A DNA stretch of 64,000 bases from Phycicoccus sp. (GTDB lineage: Bacteria; Actinomycetota; Actinomycetes; Actinomycetales; Dermatophilaceae): NCBI GenBank assembly GCA_039812375.1, contig JBDIAO010000003.1, positions 10,949 to 74,948 on the forward strand, read 5' to 3'. Both the position numbers and the translations under genes were made by a program. Below the pieces are notes generated by a model. That model did no database searches and was not told where the DNA came from. It was given only the letters and a program-made list of their open reading frames with translations. Below are positions 9,903 through 59,750 of this stretch, one piece after another; within the stretch, counting starts at the first letter, position 1; each line of letters starts with the position of its first letter.

Positions 9903-9965
9903 GAGACGGACGGTAGCCCTCAGGAGGTGACGAAGGCGTGCTGAGAACTGCGGTAGCGTCGCACC

Positions 9966-11117
9966 GTGGCAGCGGACTGGAGGGTGTGGGTCGTCGCCGT
10001 CCTCGTCCTCGCCGTCGCGGTCATCGTCCTGCTCTTCGTCATCGGCCTGCTCAAAGAACGTCGGGGAGCCCCGGGCCGACACTCCCCCAAGCGGCCGAGT
10101 CGAGACTCCTTCCGGCAAGACAGCGACGCGCCGCAGGCCCCGCGGAAGCGGGCAGCGGTCGTGGTCAACCCGACGAAGACCGCCGACGTGGCGCACCTGA
10201 CCGCACAGTTGACGGCCGTCATGGCCGCGCACGGCTGGGACACCCCGCTCGTCCTGACCACGACACCCGCAGACCCCGGGCCCGGTCAGGCCCGACAGGC
10301 GATCGACGCCGGGGTGGACCTGGTCTGCGTCCTCGGTGGCGACGGCACCGTGCGGCAGGTGGCCGAGGTCCTCGCCGGCGGCAGTGTGCCCCTCGGCCTA
10401 CTCCCCGGAGGGACCGGGAACCTGTTGGCGCGCAACCTTCAGGTCCCCAAGGACTCCCTCGATGCTGCCGTGGAGATCGCCCTGACCGGGCGCAACCTCC
10501 ACATCGATGTCGGCTGGGTGGTCCTCGACCCGGACACCGCTGCAAGCGACGCAGCCCCCGACGACGGCGTCGCACCCGAGCCGGACACCGCTCCCGACCC
10601 GCCGCAACGGCACGCCTTCCTGGTCATGGCCGGGCTCGGATTCGACGCCGCGACCATGGACGACACCCCGGACGAACTCAAGGCCAGGGTGGGCTGGCCG
10701 GCCTACATCTCCGGCGGGTTGCGCAACCTACTCGGGCGACGCTTCCACACGATCCTGACCGTTGATGACGGTCCGCCACAGCACTTCCGCACCCGCACCG
10801 TCGTCGCCGGCAACTGCGGGCGCCTCACCGGAGGCATCACCTTGATGCCAGATGCGGCAGTCGACGACGGGCTCCTCGACCTCGTGGTCATCTCTCCGAA
10901 GGGACTCGCCGGCTGGGCCGCCGTCGCCGCCCACGTCCTCGCCCAGCGAGCCTCGAAACACGCCCGCCTGGACCGCTTCCGAGCGAGCACGGCACACGTC
11001 ACCGTCGACGAGCCGCAAGCGGTGCAGGCCGACGGCGACGTCCTCGGCGAAGCTGGGAGCATCCTGCTCGAGATCGTCCCCAGGTCGCTGATCGTCCGGG
11101 TCTCCTCGATCCCCTGA
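9966..11117 (+). CDS. diacylglycerol-kinase-family lipid kinase with N-terminal membrane anchor
   Basis: N-terminal TM WVVAVLVLAVAVIVLLFVIGLL. DAGK catalytic motifs VLGGDGTVRQV and LPGGTGNLLARNL. Confidence 0.85.
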   Translation: MAADWRVWVVAVLVLAVAVIVLLFVIGLLKERRGAPGRHSPKRPSRDSFRQDSDAPQAPRKRAAVVVNPTKTADVAHLTAQLTAVMAAHGWDTPLVLTTTPADPGPGQARQAIDAGVDLVCVLGGDGTVRQVAEVLAGGSVPLGLLPGGTGNLLARNLQVPKDSLDAAVEIALTGRNLHIDVGWVVLDPDTAASDAAPDDGVAPEPDTAPDPPQRHAFLVMAGLGFDAATMDDTPDELKARVGWPAYISGGLRNLLGRRFHTILTVDDGPPQHFRTRTVVAGNCGRLTGGITLMPDAAVDDGLLDLVVISPKGLAGWAAVAAHVLAQRASKHARLDRFRASTAHVTVDEPQAVQADGDVLGEAGSILLEIVPRSLIVRVSSIP

Positions 11118-11170
11118 CCGATCCCGAGCCGCTCGGCCCGAATCGGCCGGGGGGCTCCTACCCTGTCCTT

Positions 11171-12115
11171 ATGGGACTGCGAGTGGCCGTGGCGCTGGGT
11201 GCCGGCGGCGCGCGAGGCTACGCCCACATCGGCGTCCTCGACGTCATCGCCGAACGGGGACACGAGGTCGTGACCATCGCAGGGACCTCCATGGGTGCCC
11301 TCGTCGGTGGGATGGCTGCTGCCGGCAAGCTGCCGGCATACACCGACTGGGCCCGGAGCCTGACCCAGACCCAGGTGCTCCGCCTGCTCGACCCGACGAT
11401 CTCCGGGGCGGGCGCGATCCGAGGCGAGCGAGTGATCAGCAAGGTCCGCGAAATCCTCGACGGCGCCCGCATCGAGGAGTGCGCCATCCCGTTCACCGCG
11501 GTCGCCACCGACCTCAACAACCGGCGTGAGGTGTGGTTCCAGCACGGACCGGTGGTCACCGCGATCCGGGCCTCAATCGCCATCCCGAGTGTCATCACCC
11601 CGGTCGTCGTCGGTGGTCGACTCCTCGTCGACGGCGGTCTGATGAACCCGGTCCCGATCACCCCGACTGCGGCGACCCTGTCCGACCTCGTCGTCGCCGT
11701 GTCGCTGCAAGGCCGGGAGCGCCACGGGCCGGTTGCTGACACCCCGCACGAGCCCGCCACCCCGGTGCGGACTCCACACGAGGCGACGACCGGCACCTGG
11801 CGCTCGCTGGCCTCCCGTCTGTCCACCCTGCGCGATGAGTTGCTGCCTGACGAGGAGGAGCCGGAACGCCTCCAAGACGATCCGTGGCGCTATCACCAGG
11901 CTCCCAAGGACGTGACCACCGCGGACGTCTTCAACCGCTCGTTCGACACGATGGCGGCGCTGATCACCCGCTACCGGTTGGCGAGCAGCCCACCTGACGT
12001 CCTCGTCCACATCCCGGTGGACAGCTGCCGGACGATGGAGTTCCACCGGGCCGCCGAGATGATCGCGCTCGGCCGAGATCTGGCCCGCAAGGCGTTCGAT
12101 GCCGCCGGCTACTGA
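11171..12115 (+). CDS. patatin-like phospholipase (RssA-like)
   Basis: Oxyanion loop GAGGARGYAHIG, nucleophile elbow GTSMG, catalytic Asp motif VDGGLMNPVP. Confidence 0.9.
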   Translation: MGLRVAVALGAGGARGYAHIGVLDVIAERGHEVVTIAGTSMGALVGGMAAAGKLPAYTDWARSLTQTQVLRLLDPTISGAGAIRGERVISKVREILDGARIEECAIPFTAVATDLNNRREVWFQHGPVVTAIRASIAIPSVITPVVVGGRLLVDGGLMNPVPITPTAATLSDLVVAVSLQGRERHGPVADTPHEPATPVRTPHEATTGTWRSLASRLSTLRDELLPDEEEPERLQDDPWRYHQAPKDVTTADVFNRSFDTMAALITRYRLASSPPDVLVHIPVDSCRTMEFHRAAEMIALGRDLARKAFDAAGY

Positions 12116-30745: not shown

Positions 30746-32152
30746 ATGGCGACCCCCAGTTGGCCAGCTCACGACCCGGCCACCCGGCGCAACGTCCCGA
30801 CCTCGTCGACCCCGCTCAACCACGATCGTGTGGAGAAGCTCCTCGCCGCAGAGTGGGAGAACTTCACCAAGAACACGCCCGCCTCGGGTACTCACAACGT
30901 GGAGTCTGCCAAGACCATGCCGCTCGGCGTGACCTCCTCCTTCCAGTACTGGGACCCATACCCCATCTCGGTCGCCAAGGCTCGCGGCGCCTACCTCACC
31001 GACGTCGACGGACGCCAGCTCCTCGACCTGTCGATGGGCTTCGGGGCCATGCTCGTCGGTCACCTCAACCCGACCGTCGTGGACTACGTCAAGGACGCTC
31101 TGGACAACGTCGGCACCCTGTTCGTCACTCCGTCACCGACCGCCAGTGATATGGCGGACCGGTTCACCCAACGGTTCGGCATCGACATGGTGCGCTTCAC
31201 CCAGTCCGGCACCGAGTCGCTCATGTATGCCGTCCGCACCGCCCGCGCGCACACCCAGCGCAAGGCGATCATCAAGATCGAGGGTGGCTACCACGGTGGC
31301 TACGACGCCCTGCAGGTGTCGGTCAAGCCGTCGCTCGACGAGGTCGGCCCGGCCGACGCCCCCACCCCCCAGGTGCCCTTCGACGTCGAGGCGGGCACGG
31401 TCTATGTCACGCCCTACAACGACCTCGACCGGATGCGCGCGATCCTCACCGAACACGGCAGTGAGATCGCCTGTGTCGTCATGGAGCCGGTCCTGGAGAA
31501 CATCGCCATCGTCGTCCCGGACGAGGGCTACCTCGCCGGTGTGCGCGCCCTGTGCGACGAGTTCGGCGTCGTGCTCATCTTCGACGAGGTCAAGACCGGG
31601 CTCACGGCGGGTCACGCCGGCGCCTCCCAGCGGCTCGGTGTCCAGCCCGACCTGATCACCTTGGCCAAGTCCATCGGTGGCGGTCTGCCCCTCGCTGCGT
31701 TCGGCGGCAAGCGCGAGGTCATGTCGGCCGTCGTCGACGGCCGGATGGCCCACTTCGGCACCTACAACGGCAACCCGCTCGTCATGGCTGCCGCCAAGGC
31801 CGTCGACGAGATCTGCACCAAGGAGGCCCTGGAGGCCGCCGAGGAGGTCAACGTCGGAGCCCTCAACGCCATCGACAACGTCATCCGCGAGTTCGAACTG
31901 CCCGCGCAGACCGTCTCCCTCGGCGTCAAGGGTTGCGTCACCTGGGCGACCACCCCGGTGCGCAACTACCGCGACTACAAGGCGACCGACTTCCGGATCG
32001 CTGAACTGTCCTGGTTGTGGGGCGTCAACCGCAACATCCTCACCCCGCCCGGACTCGACGAGCAGTGGCTCGTCTCCCTCGCGCACACGCGTGCGGACAT
32101 GGATGGACTGGTCAATCACTTCCGCGAACTCGCCGAGGCCGTCCGCGGCTGA
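30746..32152 (+). CDS. class-III (omega-type) aminotransferase / glutamate-1-semialdehyde-aminomutase-like
   Basis: 468 aa from ATG 30746, with GCAGGAG 8 nt upstream. FTQSGTESLMYAVRTAR, EGGYHG, and the PLP-lysine block LIFDEVKTGLTAG. Confidence 0.85.
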   Translation: MATPSWPAHDPATRRNVPTSSTPLNHDRVEKLLAAEWENFTKNTPASGTHNVESAKTMPLGVTSSFQYWDPYPISVAKARGAYLTDVDGRQLLDLSMGFGAMLVGHLNPTVVDYVKDALDNVGTLFVTPSPTASDMADRFTQRFGIDMVRFTQSGTESLMYAVRTARAHTQRKAIIKIEGGYHGGYDALQVSVKPSLDEVGPADAPTPQVPFDVEAGTVYVTPYNDLDRMRAILTEHGSEIACVVMEPVLENIAIVVPDEGYLAGVRALCDEFGVVLIFDEVKTGLTAGHAGASQRLGVQPDLITLAKSIGGGLPLAAFGGKREVMSAVVDGRMAHFGTYNGNPLVMAAAKAVDEICTKEALEAAEEVNVGALNAIDNVIREFELPAQTVSLGVKGCVTWATTPVRNYRDYKATDFRIAELSWLWGVNRNILTPPGLDEQWLVSLAHTRADMDGLVNHFRELAEAVRG

Positions 32153-32169: not shown

Positions 32170-32205
32170 CCAGGGCGCGGGCGGCGGAAGCTGCCCGCGC
32201 CCTGG
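32170..32205. terminator. bidirectional hairpin terminator between convergent aminotransferase and patatin genes
   Basis: Perfect 13-bp stem CCAGGGCGCGGGC (32170-32182) / GCCCGCGCCCTGG (32193-32205) with a 10-nt loop. No U-tract, which is the I-shaped type common in high-GC actinobacteria. Confidence 0.55.
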
Positions 32206-32241: not shown

Positions 32242-35200
32242 TCAGGAGGTGGGGGGCGCAGAGCCACCGCGCGCGGCGCCAGCCTGGGCCCGCGCGGCGT
32301 CCACCTGTTGACGCAGCCGCACCCCGCGCGGCTTGAGGTGCGGCATGAAGTGCGGCACGCCCTCACCCTGGTCGAGCCTCACCCACCAGCGGAAGGCCCG
32401 GTCCCGGTAGATGAGGTCGACCAGGTAGCTGTCGTCAGGAGTGAGCGCGCCTGGGGCGTTCGACGAGGAGCTGCCGAAGTCGGCGGCGGTGGCGACAAAG
32501 GGGGCCACTTCACCAGCCCGGCGGCACTCGTCTCGGCGGATGCTGGCCAGGACCCGCCAGGGCACGACGACCGGGACGATCACGGTGAGCACCACCCCGA
32601 GAACCACCGAGAGGGCTGCCAGGGAGCGGGCCCACAGCATCCCGGAGACGTCGGCTGGGTCCGTGATGAGGAACACCGCGACGGCGAGGTAGACCACCCC
32701 GTAGACCCAAGACCACCCCGCCTGCACACCCGCGGGATTGTCGACCCGCGGGAAGGACCACGTGGAGCCGGTGTCGGCGCGGACCTCCTGGAGCCGCTGC
32801 AGCGCGAAACCAGCACAACCCGCCAGCACGAATCCCGCGGCTGCCAGGACCACACCCGTCGCGATGCACCAAGCCAGGTGTTCGCGCAGCGCGGCATACA
32901 TCGTGGTCCAGCCCACCCCCACAGTCCAGGCTCCCAGTGCGAGCACGGCGACAACCGCAGCAAGCCGCCACCCCTCGCGCACGAGGAGCCGGGCCAGTCC
33001 ATGCACCCGACGGCGGGTTCCTTCGACGAGGTGTCCCAGGGTCGAGGCATTCGGGGCCGCCGGGGGTGGTAGTCCCATTCGGGTTGCGAGGGCGCCCAGG
33101 GCGGCATACGGACTACCCAATGCCGCCGGCAGCGAGCCGAGGAGCATGAGTCCCACTGCGAACAGGACGGCAGCGCCGACGACACCTACGCCGTGCACGG
33201 CACCGGCCAGATCCTGCCCGGTCCCCGACCGGATCCGGTCCACTGCCGCGGCGACGAGGGGCACGATGGGCGTGAGCAGGACGAGCCCGTGGAGCATCGT
33301 CCCGGACCGGAGCGCGCCATAGGCGAGGGCGAAGAGGAGCAGGCTGACCCCGACCAACCCAGCGGGTGCGGAGATACCGCTGGGCAGGGCTCCGAAGAGT
33401 GAGAGCACGACGAAAACCCCACCCAGGGCCAGCCCGAGCAGGGCCAACCCCTTGGCCAGCACAGCTCGCGAGGTGAGTCCGGTCATCGCCCAATAGCCGA
33501 CGAGCATGCCGCCACGCACAGCACGGGTGAGCGGGCGGAGCGCGCCGAGGCCGGAGCGGGCCGAGTCCAGAGTCGTCGCAGCCACGGCGGCAGCCGTCGT
33601 CGCAGAGCGCAGGAACAGGTCGCTGCTCACCTCTGCCTCCAGCGGCTCTCGCCCGATCCCGGCCCGGTCGAAGGCGGCGAGCACAGCCACCCGGTCGGCA
33701 GCTGCCACGGCCTCCGCCTCGTGCTGTTCGACGATTCTCGACACCCGGGTGACCAGGTCAGCGTTCTCGGCCAGGAAGAACTGTCCATGCGACCGGGCGT
33801 TGGCCCCGTCGGTCGCATCACCGGTGATCGCCTGGACCAGCGCCGGCAGGTCCGTGGGGGCCACGTCGAGGTGGATCGACCAGGCGAAGAGTGCGGCAAG
33901 CCCGGGCATTGCCGGCGAGAGGTCCCCGAGCTGGACACGGTCGACATCGAGGACGGCGGCCAGCTCATCGACCGCCCTGGCGCGCAGCTCGACGAAGCGC
34001 GGGTCGCCAGTCACCGGCGAGCCCTCGAAGAGGGTGCCGACGAGGTGATCCACGGTCGCGGTCGCCCGGTTCCGCGGGTCCTCACCGCTGGTGTCGGACA
34101 GGTAGCCGCTGAGGATCGCCGTCCGACGTAGCCGGGCTGGCTGGAGCACCGTCAAGGCGAGGACCGTGGCCGCGTCGAGCCGCCCCCAGATCCAGTCGTT
34201 GAGCCGCCAGGAGCGCTTGATGAACCCGCCGAAATGCTTGACCTGGAGGCCGCCGAGCTTGTCGGCTGCGCTGCGGGTGTAACGCATGAACGGGCTCTGA
34301 GTCTGGGCCGAGAGTTGGACGAGCTCGACCGGGATCGTCATGCCGGTGGCGGTCTCGTCGCCGAGTGCGGTTGTGGCCACCTCAAGCTGGAGCAGGCGGG
34401 TGAGCATAGCGTCGGCGGAGTTCTCCCCCACATTCAGGAACGTCGCCCAGGCTCCCAACCCTGAGTCGGCGACCAACGCGCGTGCAGCCGCCGCGCCGGG
34501 GTTGGCGCCCGGCCCGGCCGAGGTGGTCACCGCGACCAGGATCGGGACGATCCGCACCACCTGGGCCACGACTGCGTCGACGAGGGTCCTGATCTTCCCG
34601 CCCACTGACCCGGGGTCCGCGCGGATCCGGGTCAGCCACGCCATGAGCGCCCCCTGCACCTCATCGAACCGCTTCTGCGCCAGCGGCAGATCGCCGGTGG
34701 CTCGATGCACCGCGCCGGCCTCGGCCTGGGCGACCTGCCCGGCCAGGCAGTCCAGCCCGTCCCAGGACCCACCGAGCATACGGATGGCATAGCAGCCGAG
34801 CCGGAAGGCCCAGTAGGACTGGTTGGGTTCCAATGTGGACAGCACCGGATCGGTGTCCCAGGGGTCGTCGATCTCGCTGCGGGCCTGGGCGATGTGCTCG
34901 CCGGCCTCGGACACGACCTTGAAGGTGTCCGCGACAGTGTCGAAGTCCGCACCCGGCGGCAGCACCCAGACCAGCCGCCGGATCACATCGGCCGCAGCCT
35001 CCACGACCCGAGCCGCACCAGAGTCGCCCCACCCCCATCCGGGCCCAGCGTCCGGCTTCCCCGCCGTGGGCAGGGTGGCGGGGATGTAGGGCAAGCCACC
35101 CTGAATCCCGCTCGCCCGGGGCGCCGACATTGAGCCCGTTCCCTGCGCCGTGTCTGCGCCCCGGGACGGGTCGTCAAGCCACATCTGGGCCGACTCCGCC

Positions 35201-36573
35201 GCTCCCTGGATCCGCTCGTAGGTCCAAGATGCTGCCGCCGTGCGACGCTCGGGCGGCACCAGGGCCAGGGTCTGGAGCCGTCGCTGCGCCAGGTCTCGAG
35301 CCGCCCGCCAGATCCGCAACCGGCGATACTGCGCAAAGAGGCTGTCAGCCAGCTCCGCCACGGCCTGCGGGCTGCCCGAGGCGGCTGTCTCGAGGATGTC
35401 GCTGCGAGTTCCCCGCCGATCTGCCGCTGCTCGGTTGTGCTCCTCGATCTCCTCGACGAACGTCCGACCCCCCTGCGCACTCAAAGCACCGAGGACCTGG
35501 GTCATCGTCTCCCGCAACGTCGGCGGCTCGGTCAGCGCGTCCGGCGGATCCAGGCCGGGCTGCGGCGCGTGCGGATAGACCAGGAGGAGCACCCGCCGGA
35601 CTGGGCGCGCAGCCGGCATGGCCTGGATGGCGCGCAGGGCGTACTGGGTCGGGGTGTTGGCAAGCAGCCCTCCGTCGACGGCGAAGCGGGACCGGTCACC
35701 GGTGCGCGCCGGATCGCCCCAGGACTCCACGACCGTGGCCAGGTCGGGCCGCATACCCTGGTCCTCCAGGCTGCGAGCGCTGCGAGCCGGATCCTCGCCG
35801 ACGGGCAGGAACGTCGGCTCAAAGGCGAACGGGAAGCTTGCCGAGGCCCGCGCCGCCAAGGCCATGCGGGCTGCGGTCTCTCGGATCGCCCCCGGGGCGA
35901 ACGGGTCGGGAGTGGGAGCGCGGGTCCGTGGATCCACCCTCGGGATCGGCCACCTGCTCCACCGGAGCTGGGCCGCATGCAGCTCCTGGGGGAGCTGTTG
36001 GCCCAGCGCGTCAGTGGTCACGAGCTGGTTGCCGCGCAGGACGGTCGTGGCCATGGTCAGATCCATCGGGGCCTCGGCCGGGGAACGCCAGGCCAGGGGT
36101 GTGGCCATCGCACTCAGTGCCGCGTTGAGCTGCGGCAGGAAGTACTCGTCACCGCGCATGAGCGAGGTCGGTGCGCCCCGGAACGGCTGACGCAGCAGCG
36201 TCTCGATCTGGCCCTGCTCGATCCACACGTCCCGCAGGGCGCTGACATCCGCCCGGGCGTTCACCTGGGCCAGGGCCAGAGCCGCTCCGTTGATCCCGCC
36301 GGCCGAGGTCCCGGCGATCACGTCGGACCGCGCACTCGCGCCGGCGAGGCGGAGCATGAGCTGGTATGCCGCGGGTCCACCGCCACCTTGCCCAGCCTTG
36401 ATCAGCCGGTCCAGCTCAACGACCGCACCACCCATCCAGACCGCGAGGCTGACGCCGCCGTTGAGCACCACGGCGAACCGGATCTCCTCCGCCGGCACGT
36501 CGCGGTGATTCCGGCTGTGATTCCGGCTGTGATTCAGATGGGCAAGCAGGCTGCCCGTCCCGGCCGCGCCCAT
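32242..36573 (-). CDS. giant patatin-related phospholipase (TIGR03607/DUF3376-like) fused to a C-terminal polytopic membrane domain
   Basis: 1443 aa from ATG 36573. Gly-rich loop LNGGVSLAVWMGG (aa 37-49), nucleophile elbow GTSAG (Ser90), catalytic Asp FAVDGGLLANTP (Asp300). DUF3376-type block FGGFIKRSWRLNDWIWGRLDAA (aa 781-802). About 8 hydrophobic helices at aa ~1020-1340, then a soluble ~100-aa tail. Confidence 0.85.
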   Translation of the reverse strand: MGAAGTGSLLAHLNHSRNHSRNHRDVPAEEIRFAVVLNGGVSLAVWMGGAVVELDRLIKAGQGGGGPAAYQLMLRLAGASARSDVIAGTSAGGINGAALALAQVNARADVSALRDVWIEQGQIETLLRQPFRGAPTSLMRGDEYFLPQLNAALSAMATPLAWRSPAEAPMDLTMATTVLRGNQLVTTDALGQQLPQELHAAQLRWSRWPIPRVDPRTRAPTPDPFAPGAIRETAARMALAARASASFPFAFEPTFLPVGEDPARSARSLEDQGMRPDLATVVESWGDPARTGDRSRFAVDGGLLANTPTQYALRAIQAMPAARPVRRVLLLVYPHAPQPGLDPPDALTEPPTLRETMTQVLGALSAQGGRTFVEEIEEHNRAAADRRGTRSDILETAASGSPQAVAELADSLFAQYRRLRIWRAARDLAQRRLQTLALVPPERRTAAASWTYERIQGAAESAQMWLDDPSRGADTAQGTGSMSAPRASGIQGGLPYIPATLPTAGKPDAGPGWGWGDSGAARVVEAAADVIRRLVWVLPPGADFDTVADTFKVVSEAGEHIAQARSEIDDPWDTDPVLSTLEPNQSYWAFRLGCYAIRMLGGSWDGLDCLAGQVAQAEAGAVHRATGDLPLAQKRFDEVQGALMAWLTRIRADPGSVGGKIRTLVDAVVAQVVRIVPILVAVTTSAGPGANPGAAAARALVADSGLGAWATFLNVGENSADAMLTRLLQLEVATTALGDETATGMTIPVELVQLSAQTQSPFMRYTRSAADKLGGLQVKHFGGFIKRSWRLNDWIWGRLDAATVLALTVLQPARLRRTAILSGYLSDTSGEDPRNRATATVDHLVGTLFEGSPVTGDPRFVELRARAVDELAAVLDVDRVQLGDLSPAMPGLAALFAWSIHLDVAPTDLPALVQAITGDATDGANARSHGQFFLAENADLVTRVSRIVEQHEAEAVAAADRVAVLAAFDRAGIGREPLEAEVSSDLFLRSATTAAAVAATTLDSARSGLGALRPLTRAVRGGMLVGYWAMTGLTSRAVLAKGLALLGLALGGVFVVLSLFGALPSGISAPAGLVGVSLLLFALAYGALRSGTMLHGLVLLTPIVPLVAAAVDRIRSGTGQDLAGAVHGVGVVGAAVLFAVGLMLLGSLPAALGSPYAALGALATRMGLPPPAAPNASTLGHLVEGTRRRVHGLARLLVREGWRLAAVVAVLALGAWTVGVGWTTMYAALREHLAWCIATGVVLAAAGFVLAGCAGFALQRLQEVRADTGSTWSFPRVDNPAGVQAGWSWVYGVVYLAVAVFLITDPADVSGMLWARSLAALSVVLGVVLTVIVPVVVPWRVLASIRRDECRRAGEVAPFVATAADFGSSSSNAPGALTPDDSYLVDLIYRDRAFRWWVRLDQGEGVPHFMPHLKPRGVRLRQQVDAARAQAGAARGGSAPPTS
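36505..36535 (-). repeat. in-frame 12-nt tandem repeat (about 2.6 copies) near the 5' end of the giant patatin gene
   Basis: Plus-strand GTGATTCCGGCT x2 plus GTGATTC. It encodes NHSR-NHSR-NH at aa 14-23. Confidence 0.9.
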
Positions 36574-36713
36574 AGGTTCACACCCTTCTTCCGAGCCCAG
36601 AGTCCATCGTCTCGCCGCGGGTGCCTGTCTGTCACCGCTAACTCCAGGGCACTTGTGCCCGGTGTTGGCCGGTTGAGGGCCAGGCCGACCTCGACTCACC
36701 TACCATCACCGGT

Positions 36714-37670
36714 GTGATGGTTGCGGCGGATGAGGACGGGCAGGAGCACTCGAGGCACGATCACGCCGGGCACGATCACGCCGTGAGCGCCGACGCCGAC
36801 CGCCGCTACCTCTCCGCGGCGCTGTCCCTGCTCGTGGTCTACATGGCCGCCGAGGTCGCCGTGGCGCTACTCTCCGGGTCCCTGGCGCTGCTCTCCGACG
36901 CCGCCCACATGCTCACCGATGCGGCCGCGATCGCCCTGGCACTGTGGGCGCTGCACCTGGCCGCAAAGCCGGCGACCGGGCGCTGGACCTACGGCCTGAA
37001 ACGGGCCGAGATCCTCTCCGGCCTGGGCAACGGGGTCACCCTGCTCATCTTGGCCGCGGTACTCGCCGTCGAAGCAGTTCGCCGGCTGATCCACCCACCT
37101 GCAGTCAACGGCATACCCGTCCTCGTGGTGGCCCTGGCCGGGGTGGCCGTCAACATCGTCGCCGCCTGGCTCATCGCCAAGGCCAACCGGTCCTCCCTCA
37201 ACGTCGAGGGCGCCTACCTGCACATCGTCACCGACCTCTACGGCTTCGTGGGAACAGCCCTTGCCGCGGTGGTCATCATCGTCACCGGGTGGACCCGCGC
37301 CGATGCGATCGCCACCCTCGTCGTGGTCGCCCTGATGGCCCACGCCGGCTGGCGCCTGGTCGCGGCGGCGGGACACGTGCTGCTCGAGGCGGCACCTGCA
37401 GGCACCGACGTTGAGGCCATCAGGGCCCACCTGCTCGAATTGGAACACGTCTCAGACGTGCACGACCTGCACGTATGGAGCCTGACCACGACCCTTCCGG
37501 CGCTCTCGGCGCACCTCGTCGTCGACGACGAGTGTTTCCACGACGGACACGCCCCTCAGCTCCTCGACGAGGCCCTGGAGTGCCTCGCCGGTCACTTCGA
37601 CGTGGAACACTCCACCTTCCAATTCGAGCCTCCGGGACACGTCGCGCACGAGCCCGGCGGCTACCACTGA
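36714..37670 (+). CDS. cation diffusion facilitator (CDF) family metal exporter (CzcD/ZitB-like)
   Basis: His-rich N-terminus HSRHDHAGHDH. CDF motifs LLSDAAHMLTDAAA and HIVTDLYG. C-terminal domain VHDLHVWSL. Confidence 0.9.
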   Translation: MMVAADEDGQEHSRHDHAGHDHAVSADADRRYLSAALSLLVVYMAAEVAVALLSGSLALLSDAAHMLTDAAAIALALWALHLAAKPATGRWTYGLKRAEILSGLGNGVTLLILAAVLAVEAVRRLIHPPAVNGIPVLVVALAGVAVNIVAAWLIAKANRSSLNVEGAYLHIVTDLYGFVGTALAAVVIIVTGWTRADAIATLVVVALMAHAGWRLVAAAGHVLLEAAPAGTDVEAIRAHLLELEHVSDVHDLHVWSLTTTLPALSAHLVVDDECFHDGHAPQLLDEALECLAGHFDVEHSTFQFEPPGHVAHEPGGYH

Positions 37671-40892: not shown

Positions 40893-41027
40893 GCACGTCG
40901 CTGACCCCACGCGACGTCGCACGTGCACCACGAGAGACCGCGCCGTCTCCTCGTGCCGCCCCGCTGGCCTCACGAGATCCTCTACCACTGAGTAGTCTTG
41001 GCTGGCACACAGACTCAGGAGGGGTGC

Positions 41028-42512
41028 ATGGCCAAGAAGATTGCTGCGGGTGACCTGACCTGGCTGCTGATGGACCGCCCGAACAACCTCATGCAGGTGC
41101 ACGGGCTCATCGGCTTCGACACTGTGCCGGACTTCGCCAAACTCACCGATCTCGTCATGGACCGGATGGTCGGCAAGTACCGGGTGCTCAGCCAGATTCC
41201 GGTCGAACGCAAAGGCAAGTGGCGCTGGGTCGACGACAAAGACTTCGACATCGCCCGGCACGTCACCCGGGTCGTCCTGCCCGACGACGACCCCGAGACC
41301 ATGCGAGCGCACATGTCGTCCCTGTTCTCCACGCCTTTCCCCCGGGAGCATCCACTGTGGCAGTTCCAACTGGTCACCGGTCCGGACGAGGACGGACCCG
41401 GCTACGTCATCGGCCGCTTCCACCACGGTCTCGCCGACGGCATCCGGCTGGTCCAGCTCATCATCGGCACGTGTGACCCGGTCACGGGAGCAACCCCACC
41501 GGCTGTGGGCCGGGGAGGTGAGCAGCATGAGAACCCCTTCGAGCGTCTCCTCAGCTTTGCCGAACAGTCGGTGACCGACACGGTCGACTTCGCCACCGGC
41601 GCCGGAAAGGCCATCTCCAAGGCTGGACGCCAGCTGGTCACCACGAGCAACCCGCTCAATCTCGCTCACTCCGTCGGGGAAGCGCTCGAGACGGTCCGTG
41701 ACCCGGTGCGCCTCATGGATGCCATCACCTCGGTGGGTGCGGTGGACAACGAGTGGTCCAACTCGTGGCGCGAGATCGGGCGCATGCTCCTCGCCGACGA
41801 GTCCGACGCGGGGGCATGGAGTGGCCGCCCGGGCGTGGACAAGTCCGTCGCGTGGTTCGAGGGCTACCGTCTCGACGACGCCAAGGCGGTGGCTCGCGCC
41901 TTTGGCGGGACGCTCAACGACGCACTCATGGCAGCGGTGTCCCTCGCCCTGACCGACTACCTCTCCGAACGCGGCGTCAAAGACGTGTCCGACCTGTCCT
42001 GGCTCATGCCGGTCTCCTTGCGTCCGGTCGACGCCGCCCTGCCGCCGACCCTGGGCAACCACTTCGCCGTGGTGCAGATCTCCATGCCCTTGGGGATCCG
42101 CGACCCCGTCGCCCTCATCGCGGAGATCGGTGAGCGCACCACTCGGCTCAAGAACTCCGCCGAGCCGGTGGTCGCCTTTGGTATGCAGCGGGTCATCGCC
42201 GAGTCCCCCCTGGCGGTCGCCCAACGGATCACCAACTACTTCTCCAACAAGACCATCGGGCTGCTCAGCAACGTCCCCGGACCGCGAGTCTCGCTCACCA
42301 TGGCCGGCGCACCGGTACGCACCGTCCTCGGCTGGGTGCCCACGTCGGGGGACCAACCGATCGGGGTATGTCTGATCAGCTATGCCGGCACGGTCGGGGT
42401 CGCGGTCGCCACCGACGCCCGGATGATTCCGGACCCACCACGCATCGCCGAACTCATCCACCACCATCTCGACACTCTGGCCGCCGCGGCGGCCGTGACT
42501 GCCGCCCGCTGA
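41028..42512 (+). CDS. wax ester synthase / diacylglycerol O-acyltransferase (WS/DGAT)
   Basis: 494 aa from ATG 41028, with AGGAGG upstream. Catalytic HHxxxDG motif FHHGLADG. C-terminal block LSNVPGP. Confidence 0.9.
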   Translation: MAKKIAAGDLTWLLMDRPNNLMQVHGLIGFDTVPDFAKLTDLVMDRMVGKYRVLSQIPVERKGKWRWVDDKDFDIARHVTRVVLPDDDPETMRAHMSSLFSTPFPREHPLWQFQLVTGPDEDGPGYVIGRFHHGLADGIRLVQLIIGTCDPVTGATPPAVGRGGEQHENPFERLLSFAEQSVTDTVDFATGAGKAISKAGRQLVTTSNPLNLAHSVGEALETVRDPVRLMDAITSVGAVDNEWSNSWREIGRMLLADESDAGAWSGRPGVDKSVAWFEGYRLDDAKAVARAFGGTLNDALMAAVSLALTDYLSERGVKDVSDLSWLMPVSLRPVDAALPPTLGNHFAVVQISMPLGIRDPVALIAEIGERTTRLKNSAEPVVAFGMQRVIAESPLAVAQRITNYFSNKTIGLLSNVPGPRVSLTMAGAPVRTVLGWVPTSGDQPIGVCLISYAGTVGVAVATDARMIPDPPRIAELIHHHLDTLAAAAAVTAAR

Positions 42513-58119: not shown

Positions 58120-58148
58120 TTGCGCTCTAGATCGAACATTAGTATGAT
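58120..58148 (+). promoter_or_regulatory. promoter TTGCGC-17 nt-TATGAT, predicting a leaderless transcript for the DUF222/HNH gene
   Basis: -35 at 58120-58125 and -10 at 58143-58148. The ATG at 58155 is 7 nt after the -10 element. This is the most AT-rich patch of the window. Confidence 0.4.
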
Positions 58149-58154
58149 CAGTAT

Positions 58155-59750
58155 ATGGAACCCGCCACTCCGACAGTCCATCGGTCTCTCCCCGGTGCGT
58201 CCGGAGTGCCTGCTCTTGGCCCCTTACCTCGGGCAGGTTCCGGCACGTCGGAGGTTGCCGGAGAGATTGCTGCCATGCGCACCCTCCTGGGATCCGTGGC
58301 CGTCGGCGACGTCGATGAGATCGATGATGCCGGGCGAATCGGACTCATCAGCGACCTCGATGCCTTGAAGAGTGCTGCCGCGGCGGCGCAGGCCAGGCTG
58401 ACCGCGACCTTCGAGGCCTCTCGACGAGCAGAGCACGCAGCCAAAGGGCAGAGCGCCTCGCGGGCCTGGCGGCACATCGGCGCGGCGATCGGCCTGGCTC
58501 GGCGCGAGTCTCCTGCGGATGGCGACCGGCGCATCGCGATCGCCCGGACCCTCGTGCATGACCTCCCGCACGCGATGGCGGCCCTGTCCGGCGGCTGGCT
58601 CAGCGAGCAGGCTGCCGGAGTAGTTGTGCGCGAGACGCGCGGACTGGATCCGCAGTTGCGCGGCCAACTCGACGCCCGCCTGGCCGGGCTCTATCCCGAA
58701 TCCCTCACCGAGCCGGACTTGCGTCGGGCGGTGCGCCGTATGGTGTTCGAGCTCGACCCCGACAGTGCCCGGGCGCGTTTCGAGCTCGCCCCGCACAACC
58801 GCCGGGTCACCCTCCGGCCCGCACGGGACGGGATGGCCTACCTGTCCATCTACGGGCGATGGCTCGAGGTCAAAGGTGCCCGTGACGTCCTGGCTGAACA
58901 CGCCACAGCGGTGACGCGCGGACGGGTCCCCGAGGACCAGCCCAGCGGGCGGACCCACGCGGAGATCATGACCGATGTCGCGCTGGCCTGGTTGAGCGGG
59001 CGCACGCCACGTCAGGGGCAGCCGGTCATGGTCAACCTGGTGATCACCGACCGGGCGCTGGCCGGGTGCGGCGACCCGAACCGGCCGATCAACGAGCCGG
59101 CCCACGTGCCCGGCTACGGCCCCGTCCCAGCCGACGTCGCCCGGGTCTGGGCGGGAGGCGAGCCCCTGTTGTCCGAGGAGTGGTATCCCGGCGAACCGGA
59201 GTCGGCCGCGATCTTCCTGCGCCGGATCTTTACCAGCCCTGAGGGCCGCGATCTGGTCGGCGTGGAGTCGAAGGCGCGCTACTTCCCGAAACCGTTGCGG
59301 GACATGATCGTCCTGCGCGACGAACGCTGCCGCTCCCCGTTCTGCCGCAACCGGATCACCGATGTCGACCACGTCCGACCCCACCACGCCGGTGGGCGAA
59401 CGAGCTACCGCAACGCTCAAGGGCTCTGCTCCCGATGCAACCAGACCAAAGAGTCGCCCGACTGGTGGGTCGTCTTGACCAACGACCTCGAGATGCCCGG
59501 AATCCATGCCGCCCACAGCGGCCACCCCCCGGGATCTCCGCACACCACCGAGACGATCACACCCACCGGGCACCACTACACATCCACCGCGCCACCAATC
59601 CTGGGTTGGGGCTGGAGCCCTCCGGAAGACGCCGCTCGTGGCGAGTGCCTCGTCACCCTCAGCCAGAGCACCGACCCCGACCCGAGCACCGACCCGAGCA
59701 CCGACCCCGGCACCGGCCCGGGCACCGACCCCGGCACGCTCGCGTCCTAG
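58155..59750 (+). CDS. DUF222 / HNH endonuclease (13E12-repeat-family type)
   Basis: DUF222-like N-terminus (LISDLDALKSAAAAAQARLTATF). HNH core CRSPFCRNRITDVDHVRPHHAGGRTSYRNAQGLCSRCNQTKE. Repetitive STDPDPSTDPSTDPGTGPGTDPGT tail. Alternative start ATG 58275. Confidence 0.85.
   Translation: MEPATPTVHRSLPGASGVPALGPLPRAGSGTSEVAGEIAAMRTLLGSVAVGDVDEIDDAGRIGLISDLDALKSAAAAAQARLTATFEASRRAEHAAKGQSASRAWRHIGAAIGLARRESPADGDRRIAIARTLVHDLPHAMAALSGGWLSEQAAGVVVRETRGLDPQLRGQLDARLAGLYPESLTEPDLRRAVRRMVFELDPDSARARFELAPHNRRVTLRPARDGMAYLSIYGRWLEVKGARDVLAEHATAVTRGRVPEDQPSGRTHAEIMTDVALAWLSGRTPRQGQPVMVNLVITDRALAGCGDPNRPINEPAHVPGYGPVPADVARVWAGGEPLLSEEWYPGEPESAAIFLRRIFTSPEGRDLVGVESKARYFPKPLRDMIVLRDERCRSPFCRNRITDVDHVRPHHAGGRTSYRNAQGLCSRCNQTKESPDWWVVLTNDLEMPGIHAAHSGHPPGSPHTTETITPTGHHYTSTAPPILGWGWSPPEDAARGECLVTLSQSTDPDPSTDPSTDPGTGPGTDPGTLAS
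59667..59745 (+). repeat. degenerate 12/18-nt in-frame repeats at the HNH gene 3' end
   Basis: AGCACCGACCC(C/G)... units encoding STDPDPSTDPSTDPGTGPGTDPGT. Confidence 0.8.

What the first reader, a model, noticed from the sequence alone, without database searches (positions are those of the whole stretch)
32242..36573. 1443-aa patatin/DUF3376 protein fused to an ~8-helix membrane domain, standing alone between a terminator and a divergent metal-exporter gene
Seen: an intact patatin catalytic set (Gly-rich loop aa 37-49, GTSAG Ser90, DGG Asp300) and a DUF3376-type WRLNDWIWGRLD block (aa 788-800). A long helical middle region follows, then ~320 aa of hydrophobic helices (nt ~32556-33516) and a ~100-aa Arg/Trp-rich tail. 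Established: patatin-like lipases act as membrane-disrupting effectors in several bacterial systems (for example CBASS CapV and ExoU-type toxins). The TIGR03607/DUF3376 subgroup has no assigned function that I know of. Inference: this is a membrane-integrated, probably regulated phospholipase. It could serve a lipid-remodelling role, since the window also holds a second patatin, a DAG-kinase-like gene, WS/DGAT, a PlsC fusion and MMPL. It could alternatively be a single-gene abortive or suicide effector. No sensor or partner gene is visible nearby.
Basis: partly seen in the sequence, partly recalled or inferred. Interest (0 to 1): 0.6.

Follow-up and report, generated by a model that had tools for sequence, protein, structure and literature searches.

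The report
Membrane-anchored patatin lipase, uncharacterised family
This is an intact gene for a large lipid-cleaving enzyme, held in the cell membrane by eight helices with all its bulk facing the cytoplasm. It belongs to a catalogued but never-studied bacterial family, and nothing around it points to an anti-virus or toxin role.

Summary
Window 32242-36573 (-) is a monocistronic 1443-aa ORF. It scores above the curated cut-offs of TIGR03607, Pfam Patatin and DUF3376. The Ser90/Asp300 dyad and the WRxNDWxWGRxD block are invariant in 51 homologues.

The C-terminus has eight hydrophobic helices. The positive-inside rule puts both ends in the cytoplasm, and the outer loops are only 5-9 aa.

The architecture is common in public data: more than 120 protein clusters, mainly Intrasporangiaceae and Nocardioidaceae, and those that carry a source name are labelled 'patatin-like protein' or similar.

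New here:
- The family comes in three forms: about 800 aa without TM helices, about 1050 aa with 4 TM, and about 1400 aa with 8 TM.
- The first four helices of this protein are homologous to the 4-TM tail of the middle form.
- The 8-TM forms make one clade.
- The membrane domain occurs only in this family and has no Pfam, PDB or BFVD match.

The gene is accessory (16/401 Actinomycetota genomes) but looks inherited: three genera keep it between era and asd. None of nine neighbourhoods contains defence genes or a conserved partner.

Best reading: a cytoplasm-facing integral-membrane acyl hydrolase acting on the cell's own lipids. A suicide or defence role is not excluded but has no support. I rate it a new member of a known, uncharacterised kind, of modest interest.

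The parts
32242..36573 (-). Complete CDS, 1443 aa plus stop, of a TIGR03607/DUF3376 patatin-like protein
   Evidence: ORF list, translation, TIGR03607 at 352 bits against a 262 cut-off, and a 100% identical database cluster, P0003.
36499..36573 (-). Variable N-terminal 25 aa, including the in-frame NHSR NHSR NH repeat (12-nt unit, about 36505-36535)
   Evidence: The sequence shows the repeat. Column identity is 0.22 for aa 1-25. There is no hydrophobic signal peptide.
35569..36498 (-). Patatin alpha/beta catalytic domain (aa 26-335): oxyanion G39-G40, nucleophile Ser90 in GTSAG (nt 36304-36306), Asp300 in DGG (nt 35674-35676)
   Evidence: Pfam PF01734 covers aa 35-313 over profile 1-191/191. 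The residues are invariant in 51 sequences. The AF2 model shows alternating beta-strands and helices at high pLDDT.
34354..35517 (-). All-helical middle domain (aa 353-740), part of the TIGR03607 profile
   Evidence: TIGR03607 covers aa 30-815. AF2 gives long helices H353-737 and a pTM of 0.88 for aa 1-1000. There is no PDB match.
34057..34407 (-). DUF3376 core (aa 723-839) with the invariant S788-W-R-x-N-D-W-x-W-G-R-x-D800 block (nt 34174-34212)
   Evidence: Pfam PF11856 at 72 bits, profile positions 315-439/514. Invariant columns K772 to D800.
33574..34056 (-). Helical linker (aa 840-1000) ending in the invariant juxtamembrane block F968-D-x-x-G-x-G-x-E ... E981 ... D985 ... R989
   Evidence: Invariant columns. 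The block is also conserved in the 4-TM forms. AF2 pLDDT exceeds 90.
33094..33573 (-). Conserved membrane module, TM1-4 (aa 1001-1160), with invariant R1020, W1028, R1089, H1095 and P1102
   Evidence: Hydropathy. Column identity is 0.65-0.76. An HMM of aa 960-1170 hits the 4-TM tails of the ~1050-aa family members at E 1e-20 to 1e-5.
32536..33093 (-). Clade-specific membrane extension, TM5-8 (aa 1161-1346), with an Arg-rich cytoplasmic loop (aa 1149-1201) and a predicted beta-hairpin (aa ~1262-1273)
   Evidence: Hydropathy and AF2 secondary structure. An HMM of aa 1171-1443 hits only long forms.
32245..32535 (-). Cytoplasmic basic C-terminal tail (aa 1347-1443)
   Evidence: Mean 13.8 K+R across 51 homologues. 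AF2 predicts a small helix/strand element with pLDDT above 90 for most of aa 1380-1430.
32170..32205 (.). GC-rich perfect hairpin between the convergent stop codons of the aminotransferase gene (stop at 32152) and the patatin gene (stop at 32242). It is a likely bidirectional terminator without a T-tract.
   Evidence: Sequence. Fold of -69.1 kcal/mol for 111 nt, z = -4.14. The consensus terminator scan did not flag it.
36574..36713 (.). 140-bp divergent intergenic region shared with the CDF cation-efflux gene (36714-37670, +). This is the presumed promoter region.
   Evidence: ORFs and Pfam. No sigma-70 consensus match was found, which is uninformative in a 70% GC actinobacterium.

Best explanation
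The gene encodes a polytopic cytoplasmic-membrane enzyme of the TIGR03607 (patatin + DUF3376) family.

**Shown**
- The ~1000-aa N-terminal part has a patatin Ser90/Asp300 hydrolase core wrapped by a family-specific helical/DUF3376 domain. It has no export signal.
- Eight C-terminal helices anchor it. Their charge pattern puts both termini and every sizeable loop in the cytoplasm.
- The first four helices and the juxtamembrane FDxAGxGxE block are an ancestral family module. The last four helices and the basic tail are an extension private to one clade.

**Inferred**
- The enzyme sits with its active site at the inner leaflet. There it removes acyl chains from the cell's own glycerolipids, as a phospholipase A / lysophospholipase or a related acyl hydrolase or transacylase.
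- The membrane module positions the enzyme and possibly hands lipid to the active site.
- The large helical/DUF3376 domain gates access.
- The role is dispensable membrane-lipid turnover or remodelling. It is not attack on another cell and not a dedicated anti-phage response.
For: - **Family and catalytic residues.** TIGR03607 at 352 bits against a 262 cut-off, full profile. Patatin and DUF3376 are over Pfam thresholds. G39, G40, S90, D300 and the WRxNDWxWGRxD block are invariant in 51 homologues of 39-65% identity.
- **Compact, confident models.** aa 1-1000 gives pLDDT 84.8 and pTM 0.88. aa 700-1443 gives pLDDT 83.6 and pTM 0.80.
- **Topology.** Eight hydrophobic segments. Mean K+R is 29.1 in the predicted inside segments against 1.8 in the outside loops, which are only 5-9 aa. 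No N-terminal signal peptide.
- **Membrane module belongs to the family.** Its HMM matches the 4-TM tails of the ~1050-aa members. A search of 1.84 billion representatives finds it in only 169 proteins, nearly all of them long patatin/DUF3376 proteins or fragments of them. Conservation of TM1-4 equals that of the catalytic core.
- **Resident chromosomal gene.**
  - corC-era-[patatin]-GNAT-asd synteny holds in three genera.
  - The protein is 64% identical to its N. japonicum counterpart over the full length, or 70% over the catalytic core. N. japonicum CorC is 67% identical to the G000 copy.
  - GC and codon bias match the window.
  - Flanks are ordinary metabolism genes in the window and in eight homologue loci.
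Against: - No biochemical datum exists for any family member; searches for DUF3376, TIGR03607 and PF11856 returned 0 papers. Substrate, positional specificity and even hydrolase versus transacylase are therefore inferred from the patatin superfamily only.
- The oxyanion loop (N-G-G-V-S) lacks the basic residue of the canonical G-G-x-R/K motif.
- A housekeeping remodelling enzyme would be expected to be more widespread. This one is in about 4% of Actinomycetota genomes and missing from the same-genus genome.
- A ~650-aa conserved non-catalytic region suggests tight regulation, which also fits a latent, dangerous enzyme.
Confidence: 0.5

Rival explanations
1. It is a single-gene abortive-infection or programmed-death effector. 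The lipase is held inactive by the helical/DUF3376 domain. Phage infection or membrane damage releases it, and it destroys the cell's own membrane from inside.
For: - Patatin lipases are effectors in CBASS and other conflict systems (established knowledge; weak local hits to CBASS_lipase and PADLOC phospholipase models).
- Distribution is sporadic with frequent loss.
- The regulatory-looking domain is very large and conserved.
- Earlier unchecked notes of this scan place other DUF3376-type patatins in lysis- or conflict-like cassettes.
Against: - The PADLOC and CBASS hits cover only about 20 residues around GxSxG: 19 bits against a cut-off of 200.
- No defence, phage or mobile gene lies next to the gene in the window or in eight homologue loci.
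- Three genera keep it at the era-asd housekeeping site, with divergence like neighbouring core genes.
- There is no compositional anomaly.
- Outside loops of 5-9 aa leave nothing to sense the exterior.
Confidence: 0.12
2. It is a neutral-lipid or storage-lipid enzyme: a TAG/DAG lipase or transacylase that links membrane and storage lipids. It would act with the window's WS/DGAT, MMPL, DAG-kinase-like and PlsC genes.
For: - Some patatin-domain proteins are TAG lipases or transacylases (established for the eukaryotic PNPLA2/3 class).
- The window holds WS/DGAT (40992-42512), MMPL, a DAGK-like gene, a second patatin and HAD-PlsC.
- In one Kribbella genome a PLD/cardiolipin-synthase-like gene follows directly.
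Against: - None of these genes recurs beside the homologues.
- In the window they are separate transcription units 4-25 kb away or on the other strand.
- Polytopic anchoring in the cytoplasmic membrane fits a membrane-lipid substrate better than a lipid droplet.
Confidence: 0.15
3. It is an exported or injected ExoU/VipD-type toxin, or an interbacterial toxin.
For: It has a large patatin protein with a long C-terminal extension, which is the general layout of ExoU-like toxins.
Against: - No signal peptide and no secretion-system, chaperone or immunity gene nearby.
- Eight TM helices with an N-in/C-in topology retain it in the producer's membrane.
- A profile search of all PDB chains found nothing at E <= 1.
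- Foldseek gave only weak cPLA2-delta hits.
Confidence: 0.02

Closest known systems
TIGR03607 'patatin-like protein' / Pfam PF11856 (DUF3376) family
   Same: It passes the curated cut-off over the whole 732-position profile. It has the same patatin core, helical domain and WRxNDWxWGRxD block. Homologues that carry a source name are labelled this way.
   Different: - It scores lower (352 bits) than the 4-TM and TM-less members (420-535 bits).
- It carries about 630 aa beyond the profile: a linker, a 4-TM module shared with part of the family, and 4 further TM helices plus a tail found only in its own clade.
- The family itself has no described function.
Neuropathy target esterase / PNPLA6-7, yeast Nte1 (eukaryotic membrane-anchored patatin lysophospholipases)
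   Same: The working analogy is a large patatin-domain enzyme tethered to a membrane, with the catalytic domain on the cytoplasmic face and big non-catalytic regulatory regions. Those enzymes deacylate the cell's own phospholipids (established knowledge).
   Different: - There are no cyclic-nucleotide-binding domains (Pfam finds none).
- The anchor is C-terminal and polytopic rather than a single N-terminal helix.
- No sequence relationship is detectable beyond the patatin fold.
- It is an analogue, not a family member.
CBASS effector CapV (NF041079) and PADLOC phospholipase effectors
   Same: It shares the patatin Ser-Asp chemistry. Both are cytoplasmically made enzymes that can attack the producer's own membrane.
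   Different: - It scores 19 bits against a cut-off of 200, with only about 22 residues aligned.
- No CD-NTase or other sensor gene is nearby.
- CapV is a soluble protein of about 320-350 aa without TM helices or DUF3376.
ExoU / VipD type injected patatin toxins
   Same: Patatin domain followed by a long helical C-terminal region.
   Different: - There is no secretion context.
- It is integral to the producer's membrane.
- No sequence-level match appears in a search of PDB chains.

Membership tests
TIGR03607 (NCBIfam patatin-like protein, subfamily_domain) | Whole-protein score over the curated cut-off (262.45 bits) with end-to-end profile coverage | tested here: met
   352.1 bits, E = 9.7e-105, aa 30-815 against profile 1-732/732. 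The six-frame genome search gave the same result.
Pfam PF01734 Patatin | Score over the gathering threshold; Ser-Asp catalytic dyad in GxSxG and DG[GA] motifs; Gly-rich oxyanion loop | tested here: met
   50.4 bits against 27.7, profile 1-191/191. G88-T-S90-A-G92, D300-G-G and G39-G40 are invariant in 51 homologues. The basic residue of the canonical GGxR/K loop is absent (N-G-G-V-S).
Pfam PF11856 DUF3376 | Score over the gathering threshold (25 bits) | tested here: met
   71.9 bits, but only profile positions 315-439 of 514 align, at aa 723-839. The remainder of the helical region is too divergent for the Pfam model.
CBASS CapV phospholipase (NF041079) | Score over the curated cut-off (200 bits) | tested here: not met
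   19.4 bits, with aa 82-105 only.
CBASS CapV phospholipase (NF041079) | Adjacent CD-NTase (cyclase) gene | tested here: not met
   Pfam annotation of about 40 window genes and the gene tables of eight homologue loci show no nucleotidyltransferase partner.
Known anti-phage defence effectors (PADLOC-DB v2) | Significant match to a defence-system model, and location among defence genes | tested here: not met
   The best PADLOC hit is 18.9 bits over 20 residues. Neighbours are metabolic or housekeeping genes.
NTE / PNPLA6-type esterases | Cyclic-nucleotide-binding domains preceding the patatin domain | tested here: not met
   No cNMP-binding Pfam hit at E <= 0.1. I use this family as a functional analogy only.
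ExoU/VipD-type secreted patatin toxins | Secretion signal, chaperone or secretion-system context, and sequence similarity to solved members | tested here: not met
   The profile search of PDB chains gave 0 hits at E <= 1. There is no secretion context. The protein is polytopic with N-in/C-in topology.
Patatin-like acyl hydrolases (enzymatic activity) | Ser/Asp-dependent hydrolysis of lipid acyl esters | not testable with these tools
   This requires expression and an enzyme assay. Only residue conservation could be shown.

The most novel reading that the evidence does not exclude
The conserved helical/DUF3376 domain, the juxtamembrane FDxAGxGxE block and the family-private TM module could together form a single-polypeptide membrane-state sensor and effector. 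The lipase would be latent. A change in bilayer state, such as phage-induced depolarisation, lipid packing defects or envelope stress, would be read within the membrane plane by invariant R1020, R1089, H1095 and P1102. That signal would unlatch the lipase, which would then either repair the membrane by remodelling it or dismantle it. If so, TIGR03607 would be an undescribed class of self-contained, membrane-gated phospholipases with a new membrane fold.
Probability: 0.12. Interest if true: 0.7.

Novelty: new member of a known kind. Interest (0 to 1): 0.3.

Why it matters
TIGR03607/DUF3376 is a sizeable bacterial enzyme family with an intact lipase centre, and I found no publication on it. This analysis adds four things:
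- Most sampled Actinomycetota members are integral membrane proteins.
- The family has three architectures.
- The membrane module occurs nowhere else and has no solved structural relative.
- All of the bulk faces the cytoplasm.

That turns a 'patatin-like protein' label into concrete experiments: topology mapping, S90A toxicity tests and lipidomics in cultivable carriers such as Nostocoides japonicum or Phycicoccus.

If the enzyme remodels inner-leaflet lipids, it would be a bacterial counterpart of NTE-type enzymes. If it is a latent self-lysis enzyme, it would be a new single-gene death module. As a finding in this window, however, it is one ordinary member of a widespread, already catalogued clade.

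Tried and rejected
- **Literature.** 'DUF3376', 'TIGR03607' and 'PF11856' each gave 0 papers. Broader patatin searches returned only unrelated families such as CapV, Rv3091 and Rv1063c.
- **Solved-structure sequence search.** The 51-sequence profile gave 0 hits at E <= 1.
- **Foldseek.**
  - aa 700-1443 against PDB and BFVD, and aa 1-1000 against PDB, gave nothing at E <= 0.001.
  - The best hits (TRP channels, PAL, membrane pyrophosphatase, tape-measure proteins) have TM-scores of about 0.1 and are noise.
  - The one hit of a related enzyme class is weak: cPLA2-delta 5izr, E 1.2.
  - Whole multi-domain queries limit sensitivity, and I could not cut domains because model coordinates are not exposed.
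- **Stand-alone versions of the membrane domain.**
  - The short hits P0175 (493 aa) and P0168 (493 aa) begin inside conserved soluble blocks upstream of the membrane domain, so they are truncated calls.
  - P0123 (401 aa) and P0236 (430 aa) begin at the start of the membrane domain, aligned from their residue 2-3. They look like fragments too, but their contigs were not checked.
  - I rejected them as an independent family.
- **Synteny around the window's own flanks in the same-genus genome G001.** Only the aminotransferase is conserved there and the CDF gene is absent. No clean empty-site comparison is possible at this locus.
- **Consensus promoter/terminator scan.** No hits. The hairpin was found by reading and folding the sequence instead.
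- **Second long type.** G407 and G418 (about 1400 aa, 8-9 TM) score below the TIGR03607 cut-off. Their TM part matches neither of my HMMs. I did not pursue them.

Full report
**1. The observation**

The longest open frame on the minus strand runs 32242-36699, 1485 aa. The ATG at 36573 follows a GAAGGG ribosome-binding motif and gives 1443 aa. Its N-terminal length agrees with that of 50 homologues. GC by codon position is 0.74/0.55/0.84, the pattern of the other genes in this 70% GC window.

- NCBIfam TIGR03607 scores 352.1 bits against a cut-off of 262.45. It covers aa 30-815 and all 732 profile positions.
- Pfam Patatin covers aa 35-313 at 50.4 bits.
- DUF3376 covers aa 723-839 at 71.9 bits, but only profile positions 315-439 of 514.

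In an alignment of 51 full-length homologues at 39-65% identity, several features are invariant: G39, G40, G88-T-S90-A-G92, D300-G-G and S788-W-R-x-N-D-W-x-W-G-R-x-D800. The catalytic residues therefore do align.

Kyte-Doolittle analysis finds eight hydrophobic segments between aa 1036 and 1346. The tail is basic.

A consensus scan finds no T-tract terminator. A perfect 13-bp GC stem at 32170-32205 does lie between the convergent stop codons; the region folds at -69 kcal/mol, z = -4.1. The divergent upstream neighbour is a CDF cation-efflux gene, followed by an MMPL gene.

**2. Anatomy**

AlphaFold2 was run with the 51-sequence alignment. Both models are confident:
- aa 1-1000: pLDDT 84.8, pTM 0.88.
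- aa 700-1443: pLDDT 83.6, pTM 0.80.

| Region (aa) | Feature |
|---|---|
| 1-25 | Unconserved, holds an NHSR repeat |
| 26-335 | Patatin alpha/beta core |
| 353-740 | Bundle of long helices |
| 749-754 | Strand, followed by the invariant WRxNDWxWGRxD helix (DUF3376 core) |
| 840-1000 | Helical linker ending in the invariant F968-D-x-x-G-x-G-x-E...E981...D985...R989 block |
| ~1010-1353 | Membrane helices, interrupted by an Arg-rich loop (1149-1201) and a beta-hairpin (~1262-1273) |
| 1347-1443 | Small C-terminal element |

Column identity in TM1-4 (0.65-0.76) is as high as in the catalytic core. TM5-8 are less conserved at 0.37-0.62. Invariant polar residues sit in or at the ends of the helices: R1020, W1028, R1089, H1095 and P1102.

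**3. Topology**

There is no signal peptide. Across the 51 sequences, the segments predicted to be inside carry on average 29.1 K+R. These are the pre-TM1 region, loops 2-3, 4-5 and 6-7, and the tail. The four outside loops carry 1.8 and are only 5-9 residues long.

The protein is therefore N-in/C-in, and essentially nothing is exposed outside the membrane. This excludes an extracytoplasmic sensor or an exported toxin. It places the lipase at the inner leaflet.

**4. How common the fusion is**

A word-indexed search returned 353 significant hits. The best 120 clusters are nearly all 1330-1500 aa with at least 90% coverage. Named sources:
- Nostocoides japonicum (64% identity)
- Phycicoccus
- Pedococcus
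- Ornithinibacter
- Fodinibacter
- Ornithinimicrobium
- Nocardioides
- Kribbella
- Virgisporangium
- Motilibacterales

Those with a source name are labelled 'patatin-like protein', 'putative Patatin', 'DUF3376 domain-containing protein' or 'hypothetical protein'.

An exhaustive phmmer of aa 990-1443 against 1.84 billion representatives found only 169 proteins. Almost all carry the match at the C-terminus of 1200-1500-aa proteins. Of four short hits inspected, two begin inside conserved soluble blocks and two begin at the start of the membrane domain, so I read them as truncated gene calls. The membrane domain is thus private to this family. It matches no Pfam or NCBIfam model.

Six-frame searches of genomes show the family is sporadic:
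- 6 of 61 relatives pass the cut-off, and the same-genus genome has none.
- 16 of 401 Actinomycetota genomes match.
- 0 of 14 control genomes match.

**5. Three architectures, one origin of the long form**

I read the ORFs of 17 family members from genomes. They fall into three groups:
- about 800-aa proteins without TM helices;
- about 1030-1240-aa proteins with three to five (mostly four) predicted C-terminal TM segments, the commonest form sampled;
- about 1400-1570-aa proteins with eight.

An HMM of window aa 960-1170 matches the tails of five of the nine 4-TM forms at E 1e-20 to 1e-5. This HMM covers the juxtamembrane block plus TM1-4. The FDxAGxGxE, RxxRG and ALR(S/T)G motifs are retained. 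An HMM of aa 1171-1443 matches only long forms.

I built a maximum-likelihood tree from the catalytic-plus-DUF3376 core alone. It puts all 26 sampled 8-TM proteins in one clade (SH-aLRT 100) nested among 4-TM forms. The TM-less forms lie elsewhere. The window's protein is thus a 4-TM family member whose clade gained four more helices and a tail once.

**6. Genomic context and inheritance**

In the window the gene is monocistronic between the hairpin and a divergent promoter region. The surrounding 60 kb is ordinary chromosome:
- serS, pheA and a PBP;
- fatty-acid beta-oxidation genes;
- a peptide ABC transporter;
- lactate utilisation genes;
- CDF, MMPL and WS/DGAT;
- a small second patatin;
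- a DAGK-like gene;
- a HAD-PlsC fusion.

Eight homologue loci share none of these neighbours and contain no defence genes; the only mobile-type genes there (a DDE transposase, a DUF222 gene) lie more than 4 kb away.

One arrangement does recur. In N. japonicum, Fodinibacter luteus and genome G007, the gene lies between era and GNAT/asd, in the order corC-era-[patatin]-GNAT-asd. The same-genus genome G001 has era followed by asd with no patatin. In the window's genome, era sits at the end of a short contig and the patatin is elsewhere.

The protein is 64% identical to its N. japonicum counterpart over the full length, and 70% over the catalytic core. The N. japonicum CorC protein is 67% identical to its counterpart in the window's genome. 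The picture is a vertically inherited, dispensable chromosomal gene with loss and relocation. It does not look like an island cargo.

**7. Comparison with known systems**

- CBASS CapV and PADLOC phospholipase models match only the ~20-residue nucleophile loop, at 19 bits against a cut-off of 200.
- The family profile finds no PDB chain at E <= 1.
- Foldseek finds nothing at E <= 0.001 in PDB or BFVD.
- No paper mentions DUF3376, TIGR03607 or PF11856.
- The nearest working analogy is the NTE/PNPLA6 class. These are membrane-tethered, cytoplasm-facing patatin enzymes with large regulatory regions that deacylate the cell's own phospholipids. This protein lacks their cNMP-binding domains and is not a member.

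**8. Mechanism and verdict**

Shown:
- family membership;
- an intact, conserved catalytic dyad;
- polytopic N-in/C-in anchoring;
- an ancestral 4-TM module plus a clade-specific extension;
- stand-alone gene organisation;
- sporadic but vertical distribution.

Inferred:
- The enzyme deacylates inner-leaflet glycerolipids.
- The membrane module positions it.
- The helical/DUF3376 domain gates it.

I give this reading about 0.5. A storage-lipid role gets about 0.15 and a latent suicide or defence effector about 0.12. The remainder goes to unknown or other roles.

The finding is a correct description of a new member of a catalogued but uncharacterised family. The family as a whole deserves experimental attention. 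This particular locus is not exceptional.

**Limits**

Neighbourhoods were inspected for nine loci only.

Noticed in passing
window 36505-36535 (-), aa 14-23 of the patatin protein: An in-frame 12-nt tandem repeat encodes NHSR-NHSR-NH in the unconserved N-terminal 25 aa. Homologues lack it (column identity 0.22). An earlier first-reader note (e1-3028587) flagged the same repeat.
   Followed up: partly
G000 contig C97 (L043), end of contig; compare L010, L028, L039, L044: Three related genera keep the patatin gene between era and GNAT/asd. In the window's genome the era contig ends 66 bp after era, and the patatin lies on another contig between an aminotransferase gene and a CDF gene. The same-genus genome G001 has era followed by asd with no patatin. 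This indicates relocation in one lineage and loss in the other. What follows era in G000 is unknown.
   Followed up: partly
L024 / L025 (G407:C1:170500-175800, G418:C1:2873500-2878900): A second, very divergent long type of about 1400 aa with 8-9 predicted TM helices. It scores about 210 bits, below the TIGR03607 cut-off. Its membrane part matches neither the TM1-4 nor the TM5-8 HMM of the window protein. It is either an independent acquisition or an extreme divergence of a membrane domain.
   Followed up: no
window 9957-12112 (+): A DAG-kinase/YegS-like gene (9957-11114) overlaps or abuts a small ~330-450-aa patatin gene (10769-12112; Pfam Patatin at 92 bits). This could be a lipid-turnover pair. 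It is unrelated in family to the large patatin.
   Followed up: no
window 58143-59747 (+): A DUF222 + HNH endonuclease gene of the 13E12-repeat type. It is the only mobile-element-like gene seen in the window, 22 kb from the finding. A DUF222 gene also lies about 4.3 kb upstream of the Nocardioides homologue (L014).
   Followed up: no
L015 11129-12778 (Kribbella sp. NBC_00359): In this genome a PLDc_2 protein (phospholipase D / cardiolipin-synthase-like) follows 25 bp after the long-form patatin on the same strand. This is the only lipid-enzyme neighbour seen among eight homologue loci.
   Followed up: no
Pfam confirms it (HAD at 90 bits, Acyltransferase at 82 bits).
   Followed up: no
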